Positions 57,386-63,603 are shown, numbered from the stretch's first letter. The stretch is 64,000 nucleotides of DNA from a virus (IMGVR_UViG_3300048672_000524:1-64000), one strand, 5' to 3'. Translations and numbers: made by a program. Notes: generated by a model not told the origin, from the sequence alone.

Positions 57386-57502
57386 GTTTTAAGTCAAATT
57401 TTGTCAATTTATGCCATTTTGCTATGATTGCAACAATTCAGGCCCAGTTGCGCCAAGTGGTGGCGAAGCCACTAGGCTGCGCGACTTAGGGCAGAGATCT
57501 AG

Positions 57503-57532
57503 AATTTACACTTGACACAATTGGTTTTACAC
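57503..57532 (+). promoter_or_regulatory. consensus sigma70 promoter (TTGACA-18-TAAAAT-TTGGCGC), module 1
   Basis: member of the repeated plus-strand promoter family. Confidence 0.55.
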
Positions 57533-57623
57533 TGGTAAAATTTGGCGCCGAAGCGCCTGAAACAGACTTACGAATTTGGCAGGGTGCTCTGAGTTAGGGG
57601 TACCGGGTAGACAAAACAAAAGC

Positions 57624-57660
57624 TCCTATACGTCGACGTATAGGAGCTTTTGAAGTTGGT
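57624..57660. terminator. perfect palindromic hairpin (bidirectional terminator-like)
   Basis: AAAAGCTCCTATACGTC/GACGTATAGGAGCTTTT. Confidence 0.55.
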
Positions 57661-58629
57661 TAGACTTTTTGCAGCCAACACATACCACCACAGTCCGCAT
57701 TAGCTGGTCTGCCCTCACTACGGAGTAGAGTATTGGCCTCCGACAAGAGGGAGCCTTCTGTGCTCAAGACTAGAGGATCAGTCTAGCTTCAACCTAATTT
57801 ATACTCTGGGTCTCGAGTAGCTTTATATATGCTAGTCCCCTCGCCAAGGTTGTAACACCACGTTATAAATATGCACATACTACTAAACGTGGACTTCGTC
57901 CGTGCTATTACCTTCGGTGGCTTAGTAGAAGTTCCTGGGAAGTGGGACTTGCAATACTTACCGGAAGTCGAAGGTTTCGCTAGAATTGCACTAGCTCATC
58001 AGATAGCTTAAAAACAGACTTGCTTCAATGGGAGGGTCTCCAAATTAAGACCCACCCCCTAGAAACAGACTAGGGTAATTTACCGAGCGCCGAGTCATCA
58101 CGTTGTCCAGTCATTGGTATGTTTCATTTTGGGATCTGTATCCTAGCTCGCTTGGGGTTTCAGCCCGTTGTAGCCATGTCGATACTCGTCACCGCACCAT
58201 ACACTTGCCGTCTCTTGCTACTACTCAACTCAATCTGAACATTGTCGGTAAATTATAAAGTAGGGACTACTGGTTCGCCTCGCCTCCGATTGGGCACTCA
58301 GCCCTCTGTTCAGCTTACCTCCACAATAACCCCAAATCGAAGGGCAGCAGGGTAAGAGCTTCACCTGCTATTAAGTTTTTATCTATACCCATCACCGGTG
58401 AGCTACTTGCGGGTAGCCGGGTCTTGGAGTACAGCCTTGAAACACCCAAGTTAAGCAACAACTGATATTCTATCACGTCTCATTGGCTTTTACCGTCTTT
58501 TAGTGCACATTATACACGGGGTTTTGGCGGTAGCCGTAGATGTTGTTGCTTAACTTGACTGTCTAAGAATATATTATACAGTCATTAGGGTCGGGATTCA
58601 AGTTTAAATTTCCCGACCCTAGAACTCGC

Positions 58630-58945
58630 TCAATCTGCTGACACAGCCAGAACCAGAGCAGTCAGCGCTTCCTTGGTAGCCTTTTCGAAGCTCTCGAAGG
58701 TACCAGTGGCAACTTCGAACTTAGCTTCTAGAGCCTTAACCAGGTCAGCCTTGGTTTGGGCAGTAGCCTTAGCTTCCTTGTCCTTGGCCTTGTACACGCC
58801 TTCGCGGGTCAGCTTGGCAACCACAGAGCGCACAGTCTTGCCCACTTGAGCAGCCAGGGCCTCCACAGTTTCACCAGCCATGTAACCTTGCACCAGAGCG
58901 GTGGTTTGGGCCTCAGTGTAATTCACAGTCTTTTCGCTAGCCATT
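58630..58945 (-). CDS. small sigma-region-4-like HTH protein, paralog A
   Basis: MASEKTVNYTEAQTTALVQGYMAGETVEALAAQVGKTVRSVVAKLTREGVYKAK; SD AAGGAAA + ATG; ORF-track start trimmed. Confidence 0.55.
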
Positions 58946-59497
58946 TGGATATTTCCTTTATTTGACAGAAGATTAATTATAGAACAATTTAGGGGTTTCA
59001 TCAAGTCGGGATTTCTTAGCGTTTCCGCTTTATCTAATTCTCTCTGATTTCCCAACCGATGAATCTATTATAGACTTTCCAAGTTGCGAAGACAAGTCAA
59101 AAATTCTTCGGCTGTATCTGGATTATCAACTTTTTCGGACAGTTCCATCTCCCTCAATTCTTGAAAGAGGTCGCTATATGAATTGTGGAAATATGATGCT
59201 TCTTGTAGTGACATAATCTCTCCAATGAAAGATATACTATGACTCAAAATTATAAAATTTTCAAATTCAAGTTTTCGCACTAGCTTTAGCACTTGGTCGC
59301 GGAGCACATTCAAGAATTTGCACTAGCTTTCGCACTGGCGCAGCCGGGGGAGGGGAGGTTAGTGAGTACTTACCTCCGTTTTTGAGTGATAGTAAGTGCT
59401 CACGTACATGTAGCGGACGAAGTGAGTGCCAACATACATGTAGCGGACGAAGTGAGTGCCAACTTCTGCAGTTACTGTGTAACAGATGTAACAGCGC

Positions 59498-59527
59498 TTG
59501 ACACGGGCTGGTTTTTCGTGGTATAAT
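59498..59527 (+). promoter_or_regulatory. super-consensus sigma70 promoter (TTGACA-18-TGgTATAAT-TTTGGCGCA), module 2, flanked by TGTAACA palindromes
   Basis: upstream TGTAACAGATGTAACAG; downstream 16-bp-arm palindrome TTGTAACAACCTGTAA/TTACAGGTTGTTACAA (59528-59564). Confidence 0.6.
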
Positions 59528-59580
59528 TTTGGCGCAAACTTGTAACAACCTGTAAGTTACAGGTTGTTACAATTGTGGCT

Positions 59581-59612
59581 AAAAATAACCCTGCGCTTGA
59601 CAGGGTTATTCG
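59581..59612 (-). terminator. rho-independent terminator of the 59614..59961 gene
   Basis: AATAACCCTG...CAGGGTTATT + TTTTAG on minus strand. Confidence 0.5.
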
Positions 59613-59613
59613 G

Positions 59614-59961
59614 TTAGGTTGACTGGCCCACAGCGTAGGCAATTTCATTGGCAACGGATTCTAGCAAACTGGCTTCCGTATCATGCGCGAAACCGTCAAC
59701 CCGACCCAGACGCACGGGCAAACTCTCGCCGTTATACATGCGTGCCATTGCGACATACTTGCCCAGCTTCGGGCGGAACTTCAGTTCACCCTTGCCCGTG
59801 ATTGCAACCGAGAATTCACCCATGTCACTGCCACTGCGACGGATTGCAACAGTCACGCACATATCCGTGTTAGAAAACAGCGAAACTTCGGGCATACCTG
59901 CGCGCATATCCTTGAGCGCTTGCTTTTGGGCACGGGTAGCCTTAGGGGAAGATGCAGACAT
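59614..59961 (-). CDS. hypothetical protein
   Basis: internal start MSASSPKATRAQ... Confidence 0.4.
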   Translation of the reverse strand: MSASSPKATRAQKQALKDMRAGMPEVSLFSNTDMCVTVAIRRSGSDMGEFSVAITGKGELKFRPKLGKYVAMARMYNGESLPVRLGRVDGFAHDTEASLLESVANEIAYAVGQST

Positions 59962-60017
59962 TTTCAGATCCTTTTCACGTTTTGAAGAATTCAGTTTAAT
60001 CGATTTTTGACAAGGAA

Positions 60018-60045
60018 GCAATAGGGGTTTCCCCCTATTGCTTAA
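60018..60045. repeat. palindromic hairpin GCAATAGGGGTTTCCCCCTATTGC, copy 1 (copy 2 at 63579-63603)
   Basis: identical hairpin immediately downstream of paralog B and paralog C stop codons. Confidence 0.6.
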
Positions 60046-62603: not shown

Positions 62604-62689
62604 TTTTCGGGTTCCGTTGCTGATCTAGTGAATAGAGTATAGCAGGCCCATGCCACCATGCAAGGCTTTTTTCTAGGTGCTTTCCCCTA

Positions 62690-62719
62690 TTGACAGCGTT
62701 TTGCGTTTCGTGGTATAAT
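62690..62719 (+). promoter_or_regulatory. consensus sigma70 promoter module 5
   Basis: TTGACA-18-TGgTATAAT; followed by CTGTTACATCTTGTTACAA. Confidence 0.55.
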
Positions 62720-62757
62720 TGGCCCGCGTGCTGTTACATCTTGTTACAATTTGCCGC

Positions 62758-62787
62758 TTGACGCGGCCCAAAATTATGTGGTATAAT
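62758..62787 (+). promoter_or_regulatory. consensus sigma70 promoter module 6 (TTGACG-18-TGgTATAAT-TTTGGCGCA) immediately followed by hairpin terminator 62796-62830
   Basis: AATAACCCACCA-TTT-TGGTGGGTTATT. Confidence 0.55.
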
Positions 62788-62825
62788 TTTGGCGCAAATA
62801 ACCCACCATTTTGGTGGGTTATTGT

Positions 62826-63032
62826 TTAATTGAACAAACCGACAATGTTAGCACAAAGAAACGTACCCTGCAACACAATAAAATTGCGTTGCTTTTGGCC
62901 AACAGCTGACGCAAGCATCAAAACCGACGAAGCGAAAAACAGTGGATAACCGATGTTGCGAATATTCATCGCCACAAGGAAAGAACCGGCTACAGCAAGA
63001 ATAGTTCCGAGGGTTTCTAGTGTCTTGAACAT
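62826..63032 (-). CDS. small membrane protein
   Basis: two predicted TM helices. Confidence 0.4.
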   Translation of the reverse strand: MFKTLETLGTILAVAGSFLVAMNIRNIGYPLFFASSVLMLASAVGQKQRNFIVLQGTFLCANIVGLFN

Positions 63033-63034
63033 TG

Positions 63035-63412
63035 TTAAATCACCATGTTGTGGTAAGTGTCAGGAGGCAAGCCGTATCTTATCATAACGCTTTGCCATTC
63101 GCCACCGTGCCAGCGATTATTTTTTGGCATACCGTACAGGTTTACGGCTACTTGATGCGCTATTTCATGGGGAATTACAACGCGCATCATTTCACCATAA
63201 TTCTCAGGCTTTGTAAAGAATTTTCTAGCCAGAACAATGCGGTTTTGTTCTACCAGATTTTTGCCAGCCGTTGCCGTCATGCGGTTAGATAGCTCCACGC
63301 TAGGGCACGCGTAGCTTGACAGCTGCGGATAAAGGCGGACAAAGCGTGCCCAGACTTCGACAAAACGCGCCTTTACCTGCGCGTCAAGGTTTACAAGGTG
63401 GTTAAATGTCAT
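63035..63412 (-). CDS. SprT-like zinc metalloprotease domain protein (second copy)
   Basis: SprT-like pattern RMTATAGK...IPHEIAHQV...HGGEW; internal start MTFNHL. Confidence 0.6.
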   Translation of the reverse strand: MTFNHLVNLDAQVKARFVEVWARFVRLYPQLSSYACPSVELSNRMTATAGKNLVEQNRIVLARKFFTKPENYGEMMRVVIPHEIAHQVAVNLYGMPKNNRWHGGEWQSVMIRYGLPPDTYHNMVI

Positions 63413-63482
63413 GCTGCCAGTATAGCATAAAATTCGACCAGTGTGCATACCCTACAAGTTACATGTTGTTACAATTAATTTG

Positions 63483-63512
63483 TTGACACCCCCTAAAATT
63501 ATATGCTATAAT
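63483..63512 (+). promoter_or_regulatory. consensus sigma70 promoter module 7 (TTGACA-18-TGcTATAAT-TTTGGCGCA)
   Basis: followed by TTGTTACAATTGGTTACAATT and bidirectional terminator 63545-63580. Confidence 0.6.
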
Positions 63513-63544
63513 TTTGGCGCAACTTTGTTACAATTGGTTACAAT

Positions 63545-63580
63545 TATCCAACAAAAAAGCCACGGAAAACCGTGGCTTTT
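63545..63580. terminator. bidirectional rho-independent terminator
   Basis: AAGCCACGG-AAAA-CCGTGGCTT flanked by A/T runs. Confidence 0.6.
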
Positions 63581-63603
63581 TCAATAGGGGTTTCCCCCTA
63601 TTG

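What the first reader, a model, noticed from the sequence alone, without database searches (positions are those of the whole stretch)
57400..63600. Seven near-identical super-consensus sigma70 promoter + TGTAACA-palindrome + terminator modules on the strand opposite the protein-coding genes
Plus-strand promoters at 57503, 59498, 60646, 60724, 62690, 62758 and 63483 share TTGAC(A/G), an 18-bp spacer, an extended -10 TG(g/c)TATAAT and a conserved TTTGGCGCA start region. Every protein gene in 58630-64000 is on the minus strand. Each promoter is flanked by TGTAACA/TGTTACA half-sites, for example the 16-bp-arm palindrome TTGTAACAACCTGTAA-G-TTACAGGTTGTTACAA at 59528-59564. Each is followed within 40-130 nt by a strong hairpin terminator. 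The predicted products are very short RNAs (~40-130 nt) or pure antisense/convergent transcription into the SprT/exonuclease/HAD/HTH genes. Possible roles are sRNA genes, RNAP-titrating decoy promoters, or operator-controlled antisense switches. The density and sequence conservation are striking.
Basis: seen in the sequence. Interest (0 to 1): 0.75.

Follow-up and report, generated by a model that had tools for sequence, protein, structure and literature searches.

The report
Gene-less antisense promoters in T5-like phage
Between the first genes that a distant relative of phage T5 sends into its host sit seven near-perfect bacterial promoters that point the opposite way and drive no gene; the same arrangement recurs in hundreds of copies across an uncultured freshwater phage group, so it is a real and apparently undescribed control element whose purpose is not yet proven.

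Summary
Exactly seven TTGAC-N16-TGn-TAwAAT sites occur in the 64-kb window, all on the + strand between 57512 and 63512 (0.01 expected). All proteins there are encoded on the - strand. The region is the pre-early (first-step-transfer) block of a distant T5-like phage, with a Dmp homologue and several A2-like DNA-binding paralogues.

The element is clade-wide. At least 86 IMG/VR loci carry the same gene block, with 313 family promoters on one strand and none on the other. Promoter-gene pairs are 1632 opposite versus 76 same strand.

New points:
- The promoter usually abuts the terminator hairpin of the convergent upstream gene.
- The transcribed part is not conserved.
- TGTAACA is only one of several interchangeable flanking site classes.
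- In 54% of copies the spacer and the -10/discriminator form a perfect 9-14-bp palindrome kept by compensatory changes.

T5 itself and all cultured phages lack the element.

Best reading (about 0.4): these are regulated, deliberately gene-less host-RNAP promoters. They fire into bidirectional terminators and act in cis as caps or insulators of pre-early operons, not as sRNA genes. Rivals are antisense RNA, PeSL-like recombination cassettes and a nick or hairpin DNA signal.

The parts
57512..57541 (+). Promoter P0, TTGACA-18-TGgTAAAAT, non-palindromic spacer. It follows the + strand A2-like gene and faces the non-coding region.
   Evidence: The 57482-57554 stretch is conserved in relatives.
57544..57557 (+). 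GGCGCCGAAGCGCC hairpin at the predicted start site of P0
   Evidence: sequence; fold
57617..57652 (.). Perfect 18+18 palindrome flanked by A and T runs. It looks like a two-way terminator and closes both the P0 transcript and a putative - strand non-coding transcript.
59478..59493 (+). Two tandem TGTAACA sites just upstream of the -35 of promoter A
59498..59536 (+). Promoter A (12/12, TGg) plus TTTGGCGCA; non-palindromic spacer
59540..59572 (.). 33-bp palindrome made of four TGTAAC-type sites (operator-like), at about +6 to +38
59585..59609 (-). Terminator hairpin of the 115-aa gene (stop at 59614). The T run is on the - strand.
60606..60640 (.). TGTTACA / TTGTAATA / TGTAACA sites between the gene promoter of the A2-like gene and promoter B1
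60646..60675 (+). Promoter B1 (TTGACG, 11/12), non-palindromic; upstream member of a tandem pair
60703..60718 (+). Two tandem TGTAACA sites upstream of B2
60724..60762 (+). Promoter B2 (12/12) plus TTTGGCGCA. Core palindrome CCAAAATTATA-tgc-TATAATTTTGG at 60734-60758.
60769..60838 (.). Downstream TGTAACA sites (60769, 60779, 60832)
60853..60874 (-). Terminator hairpin overlapping the stop codon of SprT-like gene 60871-61242
62690..62719 (+). Promoter C1 (12/12), non-palindromic. Its -35 lies 22 bp from the putative -35 of the dmp promoter, back to back, with a TAGG..CCTA-type element between them.
62732..62748 (+). Two tandem TGTTACA sites between C1 and C2
62758..62796 (+). Promoter C2 (TTGACG, 11/12) plus TTTGGCGCA. 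Core palindrome CCAAAATTAT-gtggt-ATAATTTTGG at 62768-62792.
62797..62823 (.). 12-bp-stem hairpin starting 10 nt after the -10. It is the terminator of the 68-aa membrane gene (stop 62826) and is also flagged as a + strand terminator.
63458..63473 (+). GTTACA and TGTTACA sites upstream of D
63483..63521 (+). Promoter D (12/12) plus TTTGGCGCA. Core palindrome CTAAAATTATA-tgc-TATAATTTTGG at 63493-63517.
63525..63545 (+). Two tandem GTTACAATTG sites downstream of D
63553..63581 (.). A6-GCCACGG-aaaa-CCGTGGC-T5 hairpin, a two-way terminator by its flanking A and T runs
63583..63602 (.). Palindrome AATAGGGGTTTCCCCCTATT next to the stop of A2-like gene 63604-63972. The same element occurs at 60019-60040 and resembles the TAGG..CCTA element that overlaps the -35 of many family promoters.
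58630..63972 (-). Pre-early gene block: A2-like 58630-58944; small ORF 59068-59220; 115-aa 59614-59963; A2-like 60048-60389; SprT-like 60871-61242; exonuclease-like 61319-62017; Dmp homologue 62118-62603; membrane 62826-63032; SprT-like 63035-63412; A2-like 63604-63972
62636..62663 (-). Putative own promoter of dmp (TTGCAT-16-TATACT). Similar weaker - strand promoters lie at 63447-63419, 62109-62081, 61298-61271 and 60459-60431.
   Evidence: reading (inferred)

Best explanation
These are functional host sigma-70 promoters that are deliberately gene-less.

PLACEMENT. Each sits at the boundary between two co-directional pre-early operons. It faces the terminator hairpin of the operon upstream and stands back to back with the weaker promoter of the operon downstream.

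PROPOSED ACTION. RNA polymerase binds very tightly, because the sites combine an A-rich upstream stretch, a consensus -35, an extended -10 and a consensus -10. It starts at about the G/C of TTTGGCGCA and runs straight into the hairpin. The products are RNAs of about 35-130 nt with no conserved sequence. The useful output is the occupancy and convergent transcription itself. It caps each unit by head-on collision at a shared stem-loop, which stops read-through, so that each pre-early operon depends on its own promoter.

CONTROL. The variable repeats around the core (TGTAACA in this phage) are operators. Phage DNA-binding proteins, most likely the A2-like paralogues encoded in the same block, use them to switch the caps off after the first minutes.

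SHOWN. The sequence anatomy, the conservation, the polarity and the position relative to stops and hairpins.

INFERRED. Promoter activity, collision or insulation, and which protein binds the repeats.
For: - Promoter quality and non-randomness.
- Strict polarity: 313 family promoters on one strand against 0 on the other in 73 loci. Promoter-gene pairs within 1.5 kb are 1632 opposite against 76 same strand. By an ORF heuristic, 163 of 301 sites have both neighbouring genes opposite.
- Position: a perfect hairpin starts within 14 nt of the -10 in 142 of 241 copies. 85% have one within 110 nt, against 7% of shuffles.
- In relatives this hairpin directly follows the stop codon of the convergent gene. 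Window modules C2, D, A and B2 show the same layout.
- Half of the co-directional gene junctions (141 of 280) carry a module.
- The transcribed sequence is not conserved and shows no G:U bias on the + strand.
- Operator-like repeats lie at about -95 to -36 and +5 to +55 relative to the start, in several interchangeable classes.
- There are four A2-like paralogues in the window. The model shows two three-helix bundles joined by a linker.
- Established knowledge: head-on RNAP collision at a stem-loop is needed to stop read-through at convergent gene pairs in E. coli (bioRxiv 10.1101/2022.10.23.513370, abstract read).
Against: - There are no transcript data, so promoter activity in the unknown host is only inferred from the consensus.
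- Insulation does not explain why 54% of copies keep a perfect palindrome across the spacer and -10.
- It also does not explain why TTTGGCGC is conserved in copies that lack the palindrome.
- A crude terminator scan finds canonical T-tailed hairpins in only about 30% of modules on either strand.
- A good terminator alone would insulate, so the need for a maximal promoter is unexplained.
- In most relatives the module and the next gene promoter are 60-100 bp apart, so direct occlusion is not general.
- The fold matches of the A2-like model are not significant: best E-value 0.19.
Confidence: 0.4

Rival explanations
1. The short + strand RNAs are the product that matters. They would be abundant immediate-early antisense RNAs complementary to the 3' terminator region of the upstream operon's mRNA, in the manner of lambda oop. 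Pairing would create RNase III substrates or otherwise tune mRNA stability. Alternatively they could be hairpin decoys for a host RNA-binding or defence factor.
For: The promoters are very strong and abut the convergent gene's 3' end, so the RNA is by construction antisense to that mRNA's terminator. A hairpin at the extreme 5' end would be expected to stabilise an RNA (general knowledge). The predicted transcripts fold far better than shuffles, with z-scores of -4 to -6.
Against: No sequence is conserved beyond GCGCA. Stem mismatches are not enriched for G:U on the + strand: 8 GT/TG against 16 CA/AC. No Rfam match reaches threshold. The low folding energies come from the DNA palindromes and terminators themselves.
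Confidence: 0.2
2. The modules are mainly recombination cassettes like the PeSLs of T4-type phages. In this view, conserved stretches of about 45 bp at cassette borders let co-infecting phages shuffle pre-early genes, and promoter activity is secondary.
For: They are composite promoter + stem-loop motifs at gene borders in a variable region. Cassette order differs between relatives: [SprT2-mem] lies before dmp, after exo, or between the two. GC content of the block is 46% against 36-44% (mostly below 41%) in the rest of the window. PeSL precedent: PMC4122927 (abstract read) and PMC2839356 (listed).
Against: The diversity of neighbouring genes is no greater across junctions with a module (1.13 bits) than across junctions without one (1.28 bits). 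Recombination does not need a perfect -35, extended -10 and -10. It does not explain the fixed 18-bp spacing or the palindrome covariation. PeSL promoters are co-directional with the genes, whereas these are not.
Confidence: 0.12
3. The conserved core is a strand-specific DNA signal rather than, or as well as, a promoter. One option is a nick site of the T5 kind (G|GCGCA next to a hairpin). The other is a hairpin or cruciform element read on one strand only.
For: T5 major nicks follow R|GCGC on one strand only (record notes; PMC3517423). Three annotated T5 nick sites read A|GCGCAGGG, and two of them sit beside a hairpin. The module motif is on one strand only, 313 against 0. By synteny with T5 (head/terminase, then repeat block, then early genes), that strand corresponds to T5's nicked minus strand (PMC10644984). 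The palindrome has 19 compensatory arm variants and variable loop length. That fits a hairpin better than a rigid protein dimer site.
Against: The T5 consensus R|GCGCRGG is only partly met, because no RGG follows GCGCA. TTGGCGCA also occurs on the - strand at 56726, 57255 and 57449. Neither a nick site nor a hairpin explains a consensus -35 at a fixed distance. 46% of copies lack the palindrome.
Confidence: 0.1
4. The modules are launch pads for antitermination, like lambda pR' with its short 6S RNA. The conserved spacer would be the binding site of a phage factor that makes RNAP terminator-resistant. Transcription would then run on the + strand toward the terminase/head operon and silence the pre-early genes late in infection.
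For: There is a strong promoter, an immediate terminator and a conserved spacer. In relatives the terminase-portal-capsid operon lies downstream on the same strand as the promoters.
Against: The terminase operon has its own, different consensus promoter. One promoter would be enough, not eight. No conserved -10-like pause element was seen in the variable early transcribed region (not tested formally).
Confidence: 0.06

Closest known systems
PeSL (promoter-early stem-loop) cassettes of T4-type phages (PMC2839356, PMC4122927)
   Same: Both are small composite motifs that combine a conserved early host-RNAP promoter with a terminator-like stem-loop. Both are repeated between small genes of a plastic, early-expressed region and conserved across a phage group.
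   Different: In PeSLs the stem-loop precedes a promoter that is co-directional with the genes it serves. Here the promoter is inverted, drives no gene and fires into the stem-loop. No excess of rearrangement at module junctions was seen.
Bidirectional terminators of convergent gene pairs in E. coli (10.1101/2022.10.23.513370)
   Same: Two transcription units converge on one stem-loop flanked by A and T runs. Collision at that point is the proposed way of stopping read-through.
   Different: Here one partner is a promoter with no gene placed 5-14 nt from the hairpin. The 'unit' is only the hairpin itself, and it is flanked by operator-like repeats.
Lambda oop RNA and P22 sar RNA (own knowledge, not checked here)
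   Same: A short non-coding RNA made from a promoter that converges on the end of an early phage gene.
   Different: oop and sar overlap coding or ribosome-binding sequence and have fixed, conserved sequences. These RNAs would overlap mainly the 3' hairpin and are not conserved.
Pre-early promoters of phage T5 (AY543070 annotation)
   Same: Strong sigma-70 promoters in the first-step-transfer DNA of a Demerecviridae-type phage. In the T5 map orientation they fire toward the left terminus, as these do.
   Different: T5's annotated promoters are co-directional with dmp/A1/A2. A scan of the T5 repeat found no site matching more than 11 of 12 consensus positions and nothing resembling this family.
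T5 single-strand interruption sites, R|GCGCRGG (PMC3517423)
   Same: A GCGCA core preceded by a purine, next to a hairpin, on one strand only.
   Different: The RGG part is absent. Physical nicks are unknown for this phage. The motif is embedded in a full promoter.

Membership tests
Sigma-70 (housekeeping) promoter | -35 TTGACA and -10 TATAAT hexamers separated by 16-18 bp | tested here: met
   Four sites match 12/12 and three match 11/12, all with an 18-bp spacer. 7 matches against 0.01 expected.
Sigma-70 (housekeeping) promoter | Extended -10 TGn, which strengthens binding | tested here: met
   TG is present at all seven sites.
Sigma-70 (housekeeping) promoter | Transcripts start 6-8 nt after the -10 in vivo or in vitro | not testable with these tools
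   No transcript data. The host is unknown.
PeSL cassettes (T4-type phages) | Composite of a stem-loop terminator and a conserved early promoter between genes of a variable region | tested here: met
PeSL cassettes (T4-type phages) | Promoter co-directional with the flanking genes, terminator upstream of it on the same strand | tested here: not met
   1632 opposite against 76 same-strand promoter-gene pairs; 313 against 0 polarity.
PeSL cassettes (T4-type phages) | Insertion, deletion and replacement breakpoints coincide with the motif | tested here: inconclusive
   Cassette order is permuted, but neighbour entropy is 1.13 bits with a module against 1.28 bits without. This was a crude test.
Bidirectional terminator of convergent units | One stem-loop with an A run on one side and a T run on the other, reached by transcription from both strands | tested here: inconclusive
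   By my reading it is clear at 57617-57652, 62797-62823 and 63553-63581 and one-sided at 59585-59609 and 60853-60874. Across the clade only about 30% pass a strict T-tail rule on either strand.
Known small RNA or cis-regulatory RNA families (Rfam 15) | Match to a covariance model at the gathering score | tested here: not met
   No match in 57300-64000 at gathering score. All E-value-level hits are below threshold and lie on terminators.
Trans-acting or antisense sRNA gene | Conserved transcribed sequence or structure with RNA-type (G:U-tolerant) covariation on the transcribed strand | tested here: not met
   Only GCGCA is conserved. GT/TG mismatches number 8 against 16 CA/AC. The body of the P0 transcript is not conserved.
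T5-type nick site | Consensus R|GCGCRGG | tested here: not met
   The modules read G|GCGCA followed by A, C or G but not GG. T5 sites read A|GCGCAGGG.
T5-type nick site | Sites confined to one DNA strand | tested here: met
   313 against 0 for the full motif. However, the short TTGGCGCA also occurs 3 times on the - strand of the window.
T5-type nick site | Physical interruption in virion DNA | not testable with these tools
   No virion DNA or read-level data.
T5 pre-early (first-step-transfer) region | Encodes Dmp and A2 (and A1) | tested here: inconclusive
   The Dmp homologue is 34% identical over 88 aa, E 4e-15, with PF26880 on record. A2-like proteins match only weakly (E 0.008; PF26822 weak), though many homologues carry PF26822. 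No A1 homologue was seen in the window or looked for in the relatives.
T5 pre-early (first-step-transfer) region | Lies in the long terminal repeat, between the head/terminase end and the early end of the unique region | tested here: inconclusive
   In relatives the block lies between terL-portal-protease/capsid and the early genes, as the repeat does in T5. The repeat boundaries themselves cannot be seen in collapsed assemblies.

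The most novel reading that the evidence does not exclude
Strong transcription directed toward the first-entering DNA end may be a conserved requirement of two-step DNA transfer. These gene-less promoters would be the cis-encoded device that supplies it.

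In T5, dmp/A1/A2 and their annotated promoters point toward the left terminus. In this clade the pre-early genes are inverted and point inward, toward the not-yet-injected DNA. Even so, consensus promoters are kept on the T5-equivalent strand at every operon border, and one more (57512) sits at the inner edge of the block.

They would trap or collide with inward-moving RNA polymerases. Host transcription could then not reel in the rest of the genome, as it does for T7, before the pre-early proteins are ready. In that sense they would form part of the injection-stop mechanism.

The hairpin-forming core (possibly also a nick site) might make them active only on freshly injected, relaxed linear DNA.
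Probability: 0.15. Interest if true: 0.85.

Novelty: new variant of a known kind. Interest (0 to 1): 0.68.

Why it matters
If these promoters are active, a large group of uncultured freshwater T5-like phages spends its best promoters on no gene at all, in the only DNA present during the first minutes of infection.

That would be a clear natural case of a promoter selected for polymerase occupancy or collision rather than for a product. It would also have built-in operators and a hairpin-forming core.

It gives a concrete, synthesisable test object of about 100 bp for several questions:
- programmed RNAP collisions as insulators;
- how pre-early genes of T5-type phages are timed;
- what the many A2-like proteins bind;
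- possibly the still unexplained injection stop and nick signals of T5-type phages.

It also offers compact, strong, insulating promoter-terminator parts for synthetic biology.

Tried and rejected
- Near and distant BLAST against cultured phages found nothing: searches gave only one sub-threshold hit. The element is unknown in INPHARED records.
- A scan of 185,579 reference genomes with the 24-base core found only six small scraps binned into MAGs, some with freshwater-type labels. I read these as mis-binned phage fragments, so the element does not mimic a host promoter.
- I tried to recover the source contig beyond 64000. Exact-protein look-ups gave only short Logan contigs. The metagenome and viral scans with a protein and a 48-mer found nothing.
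- Rfam at gathering and at E-value level found no family.
- The G:U-versus-A:C mismatch test for RNA-level selection showed no + strand signal. Extending the core palindrome beyond its perfect arms showed no further pairing.
- The terminator scoring on both strands was too crude to decide directionality.
- The PeSL-type breakpoint test by neighbour entropy showed no difference.
- I asked whether the family also supplies the terminase-operon promoter. It does not: that promoter has a C-rich spacer and no GGCGC.
- A scan of the T5 terminal repeat for an equivalent found none.
- The AlphaFold model of an A2-like paralogue (pLDDT 79.6) searched against the PDB gave no significant match. The top of the list is dominated by helix-turn-helix DNA binders, including the bipartite Tc3/Pax type.
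- Reading the - strand copy of TATAAT in the palindrome as the real gene promoter was rejected. It has no -35 and no TGn, the genes have their own promoters further down, and 46% of modules lack it.

Full report
WHAT IS THERE

The pattern TTGAC-N16-TGn-TAWAAT occurs exactly seven times in the 64-kb window. All seven sites are on the + strand, at 57512, 59498, 60646, 60724, 62690, 62758 and 63483. Dinucleotide-preserving shuffles give 0.01.

The consensus scan rates four sites as 12/12 and three as 11/12. All have an 18-bp spacer and the extended -10 TG. TATAATTTTGGCGCA is exact at four sites.

Fifteen of the 21 TGTWACA heptamers of the window lie in 59478-63532.

Every credible ORF between 58630 and 64000 is on the - strand. 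These ORFs include two SprT-like proteins (Pfam), an exonuclease-like protein, a HAD phosphatase and three copies of a small HTH protein. A fourth copy of the HTH protein lies on the + strand at 56945-57253.

The first promoter is at 57512. The big palindrome is at 59540-59572.

WHAT THE REGION IS

The window comes from a distant T5-like phage. Its SbcCD-like D12/D13 proteins are about 37% identical to those of Proteus and Vibrio T5-like phages. It carries 23 tRNAs, a permuted tmRNA and a group I intron. No cultured phage matches the region at DNA level.

The HAD protein is a homologue of T5 Dmp: 34% identity over 88 aa, E 4e-15, with PF26880 on record. The HTH paralogues belong to a very large metagenomic family, many members of which carry the T5 A2 Pfam model.

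In related contigs the block lies between the terminase-portal-protease/capsid operon and the early genes. The terminal repeat of T5 occupies the same position.

The block is thus the counterpart of the T5 pre-early, first-step-transfer (FST) DNA. The repeat boundaries themselves cannot be seen. In the T5 map orientation the pre-early genes of this phage point inward, and the promoters point toward the left terminus, on the strand that carries the early and head genes.

THE ELEMENT IS CONSERVED ACROSS A CLADE

About two thirds of them carry the full promoter with a conserved spacer and variable flanks.

Eighty-six loci encode homologues of the window's pre-early proteins. Promoter-gene pairs within 1.5 kb are 1632 on opposite strands and 76 on the same strand.

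In 73 loci oriented by the promoters there are 313 family promoters on one strand and none on the other. terS, terL, portal and the early gene c12 are always co-oriented with the promoters. dmp, exo and SprT2 are always opposed.

T5's own repeat has nothing comparable. Reference bacterial genomes hold only six small MAG-binned scraps, which look like mis-binned phage fragments.

ANATOMY

A perfect hairpin begins within 14 nt of the -10 in 142 of 241 non-identical copies. 85% have one within 110 nt, against 7% of shuffled controls.

In relatives this hairpin follows directly on the stop codon of the convergent upstream gene. In the window the same holds at 62797-62823, with the stop at 62826. 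With operator repeats inserted, it also holds at modules A, B2 and D.

Half of the co-directional gene junctions carry a module. The modules therefore divide the block into units of one to three genes. Each unit has its own weaker promoter of the TTGnnn-16/17-TAnACT type (my reading).

The transcribed part is not conserved beyond GCGCA. Stem mismatches give no sign of RNA-level selection on the + strand. No Rfam family matches.

The flanking repeats are interchangeable. TGTAAC-type sites occur near about 27% of promoters. GAATAC/GTATTC sites lie downstream of about 36%. A TAGG..CCTA palindrome overlaps the -35 of others.

In 174 of 323 non-identical promoters the spacer and the -10/discriminator form a perfect inverted repeat of 9-14 bp, typically CCAAAATTATA-TGn-TATAATTTTGG. 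None of 323 spacer-shuffled controls reaches 9 bp.

There are 19 arm variants, all exactly complementary: AATATTATA/TATAATATT, AATTTTAC/GTAAAATT, shortened AATTATA/TATAATT, and so on. Loops range from 1 to 6 nt. Pairing stops sharply at the ends of the arms.

Symmetry itself is therefore under selection. The variable loop suits a hairpin or cruciform better than a rigid dimer site.

In the window, promoters 60724, 62758 and 63483 are of this kind. The other four are not. In the two tandem pairs the non-palindromic promoter lies upstream of the palindromic one.

I have no tested explanation for this feature.

HOW IT MOST LIKELY WORKS

The selected property must involve RNA polymerase, because a consensus -35, a fixed spacing, a TGn and a consensus -10 are all kept over hundreds of copies.

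The product is unlikely to matter, because its sequence is free to vary. The placement is what is constant: face to face with the previous unit's terminator, back to back with the next unit's promoter, and bracketed by operator-like repeats.

This fits a regulated, gene-less convergent promoter that acts in cis. Head-on collision at a stem-loop is known to be needed to stop read-through at convergent gene pairs in E. coli (10.1101/2022.10.23.513370). Here a bare promoter would replace the convergent gene.

The repeats would let phage proteins turn the caps off. The A2-like paralogues are the obvious candidates. Their model shows two three-helix bundles on a linker, which would suit tandem sites 9-10 bp apart. 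However, the fold matches are not significant.

I put this at about 0.4. That the sites are active promoters at all I put near 0.85.

RIVALS

(a) Antisense or decoy RNA. This is possible by geometry but lacks any conservation signal.

(b) PeSL-like recombination cassettes (PMC4122927, PMC2839356). The composite promoter/stem-loop design and the permuted cassette order fit. The orientation does not fit, and junctions with modules are no more variable than those without.

(c) A strand-specific DNA signal.
- T5 nicks follow R|GCGCRGG on one strand, and three annotated sites read A|GCGCAGGG, two of them beside hairpins.
- The modules read G|GCGCA next to a hairpin, on one strand only. By synteny that strand is equivalent to the nicked strand of T5.
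- Against this, the RGG is missing, and a nick site needs no -35.

(d) A lambda pR'-type antitermination pad aimed at the head operon. This is unlikely because that operon has its own promoter.

(e) Titration of host polymerase is implausible for about eight sites on one DNA molecule.

NOVELTY AND VERDICT

The parts are known kinds: sigma-70 promoters, intrinsic terminators, operators, and composite promoter-terminator cassettes. The combination appears undescribed. It consists of maximal promoters kept without genes, locked in one polarity, with a compensating palindromic core, confined to the first-injected DNA of a large uncultured phage group. It is absent from T5 and from all cultured phages searched.

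I rate it a new variant of a known kind, with interest about 0.68.

The most novel reading still open is that outward-firing promoters are part of how these phages keep host transcription from drawing in the rest of the genome during the first-step pause.

Noticed in passing
window 57617-58566 (with - strand promoter-like site 58601-58573 and terminator 57652-57617): A stretch of about 0.95 kb has no ORF longer than 53 aa. It lies between a - strand promoter-like site and a - strand terminator and folds much better than shuffles (z -3.7 on the - strand, -2.8 on the + strand). AAACAGACT occurs three times by my reading. It may be a large non-coding RNA (T5 has a 719-nt stable 'RNAX') or the counterpart of the palindrome-rich T5 injection-stop region. 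Only its two ends are conserved in relatives, and Rfam has no match.
   Followed up: partly
window 25960-26398 (-): A permuted (two-piece) tmRNA gene of the betaproteobacterial type, with tag peptide ANDSIFEVRLAA, inside the phage tRNA region. This is unusual cargo for a T5-like phage and a hint to the host group.
   Followed up: no
window 28777-28972 (-): A group I intron (Rfam 60.7 bits) lies between ORFs 27430-28122 and 28912-29403. The interrupted gene was not identified.
   Followed up: no
window 59391-59463: A 30-bp unit (AGTGAGTGCCAACATACATGTAGCGGACGA) is repeated 2.4 times in tandem, directly upstream of the TGTAACA sites of promoter A, in the gap before the small ORF at 59068-59220.
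   Followed up: no
window 60019-60040 and 63583-63602: The same perfect palindrome ATAGGGGTTTCCCCCTAT sits just after the stop codons of two A2-like genes. Variants of it (TAGGTGTTTACACCTA) overlap the -35 of many family promoters in relatives. It may therefore be a second operator type rather than a terminator.
   Followed up: partly
window 57000-64000 versus the rest: GC content is 44-47% in the pre-early block against 36-44% (mostly below 41%) elsewhere in the window. The first-injected DNA has a composition of its own.
   Followed up: no
window 63412-63447 (-): The -10-like TATACT of the SprT-like gene ends only 6 nt before its ATG, and no Shine-Dalgarno sequence is visible. This suggests a leaderless mRNA. 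Several relatives show TATAAT-N8-ATG upstream of a small ORF before dmp.
   Followed up: no
window 59589-59596 (-) and 25809 (-): The full T5-type nick motif GCGCAGGG occurs twice in the window, both times on the - strand. One copy is inside the terminator hairpin of module A, preceded by A, so it reads A|GCGCAGGG as at the T5 sites. Two against zero is not significant.
   Followed up: partly
L067 about 3000-3130 and L052 about 4440-4520 (relatives): Between the last pre-early gene and the small terminase gene, L067 has about five tandem copies of CTAAGCCGTAGCGATTG. Both L067 and L052 have a consensus promoter followed by a G-rich structured stretch. This could be the terminal-repeat boundary or a packaging signal.
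   Followed up: no
window 56945-57253, 58630-58944, 60048-60389, 63604-63972: There are four paralogues of an A2-like protein within 7 kb. More than 5000 homologues (E <= 0.001) exist in metagenomes. The AlphaFold model (pLDDT 79.6) shows two three-helix bundles joined by a linker and has no significant PDB match. This is a very large phage protein family without a solved structure.
   Followed up: partly
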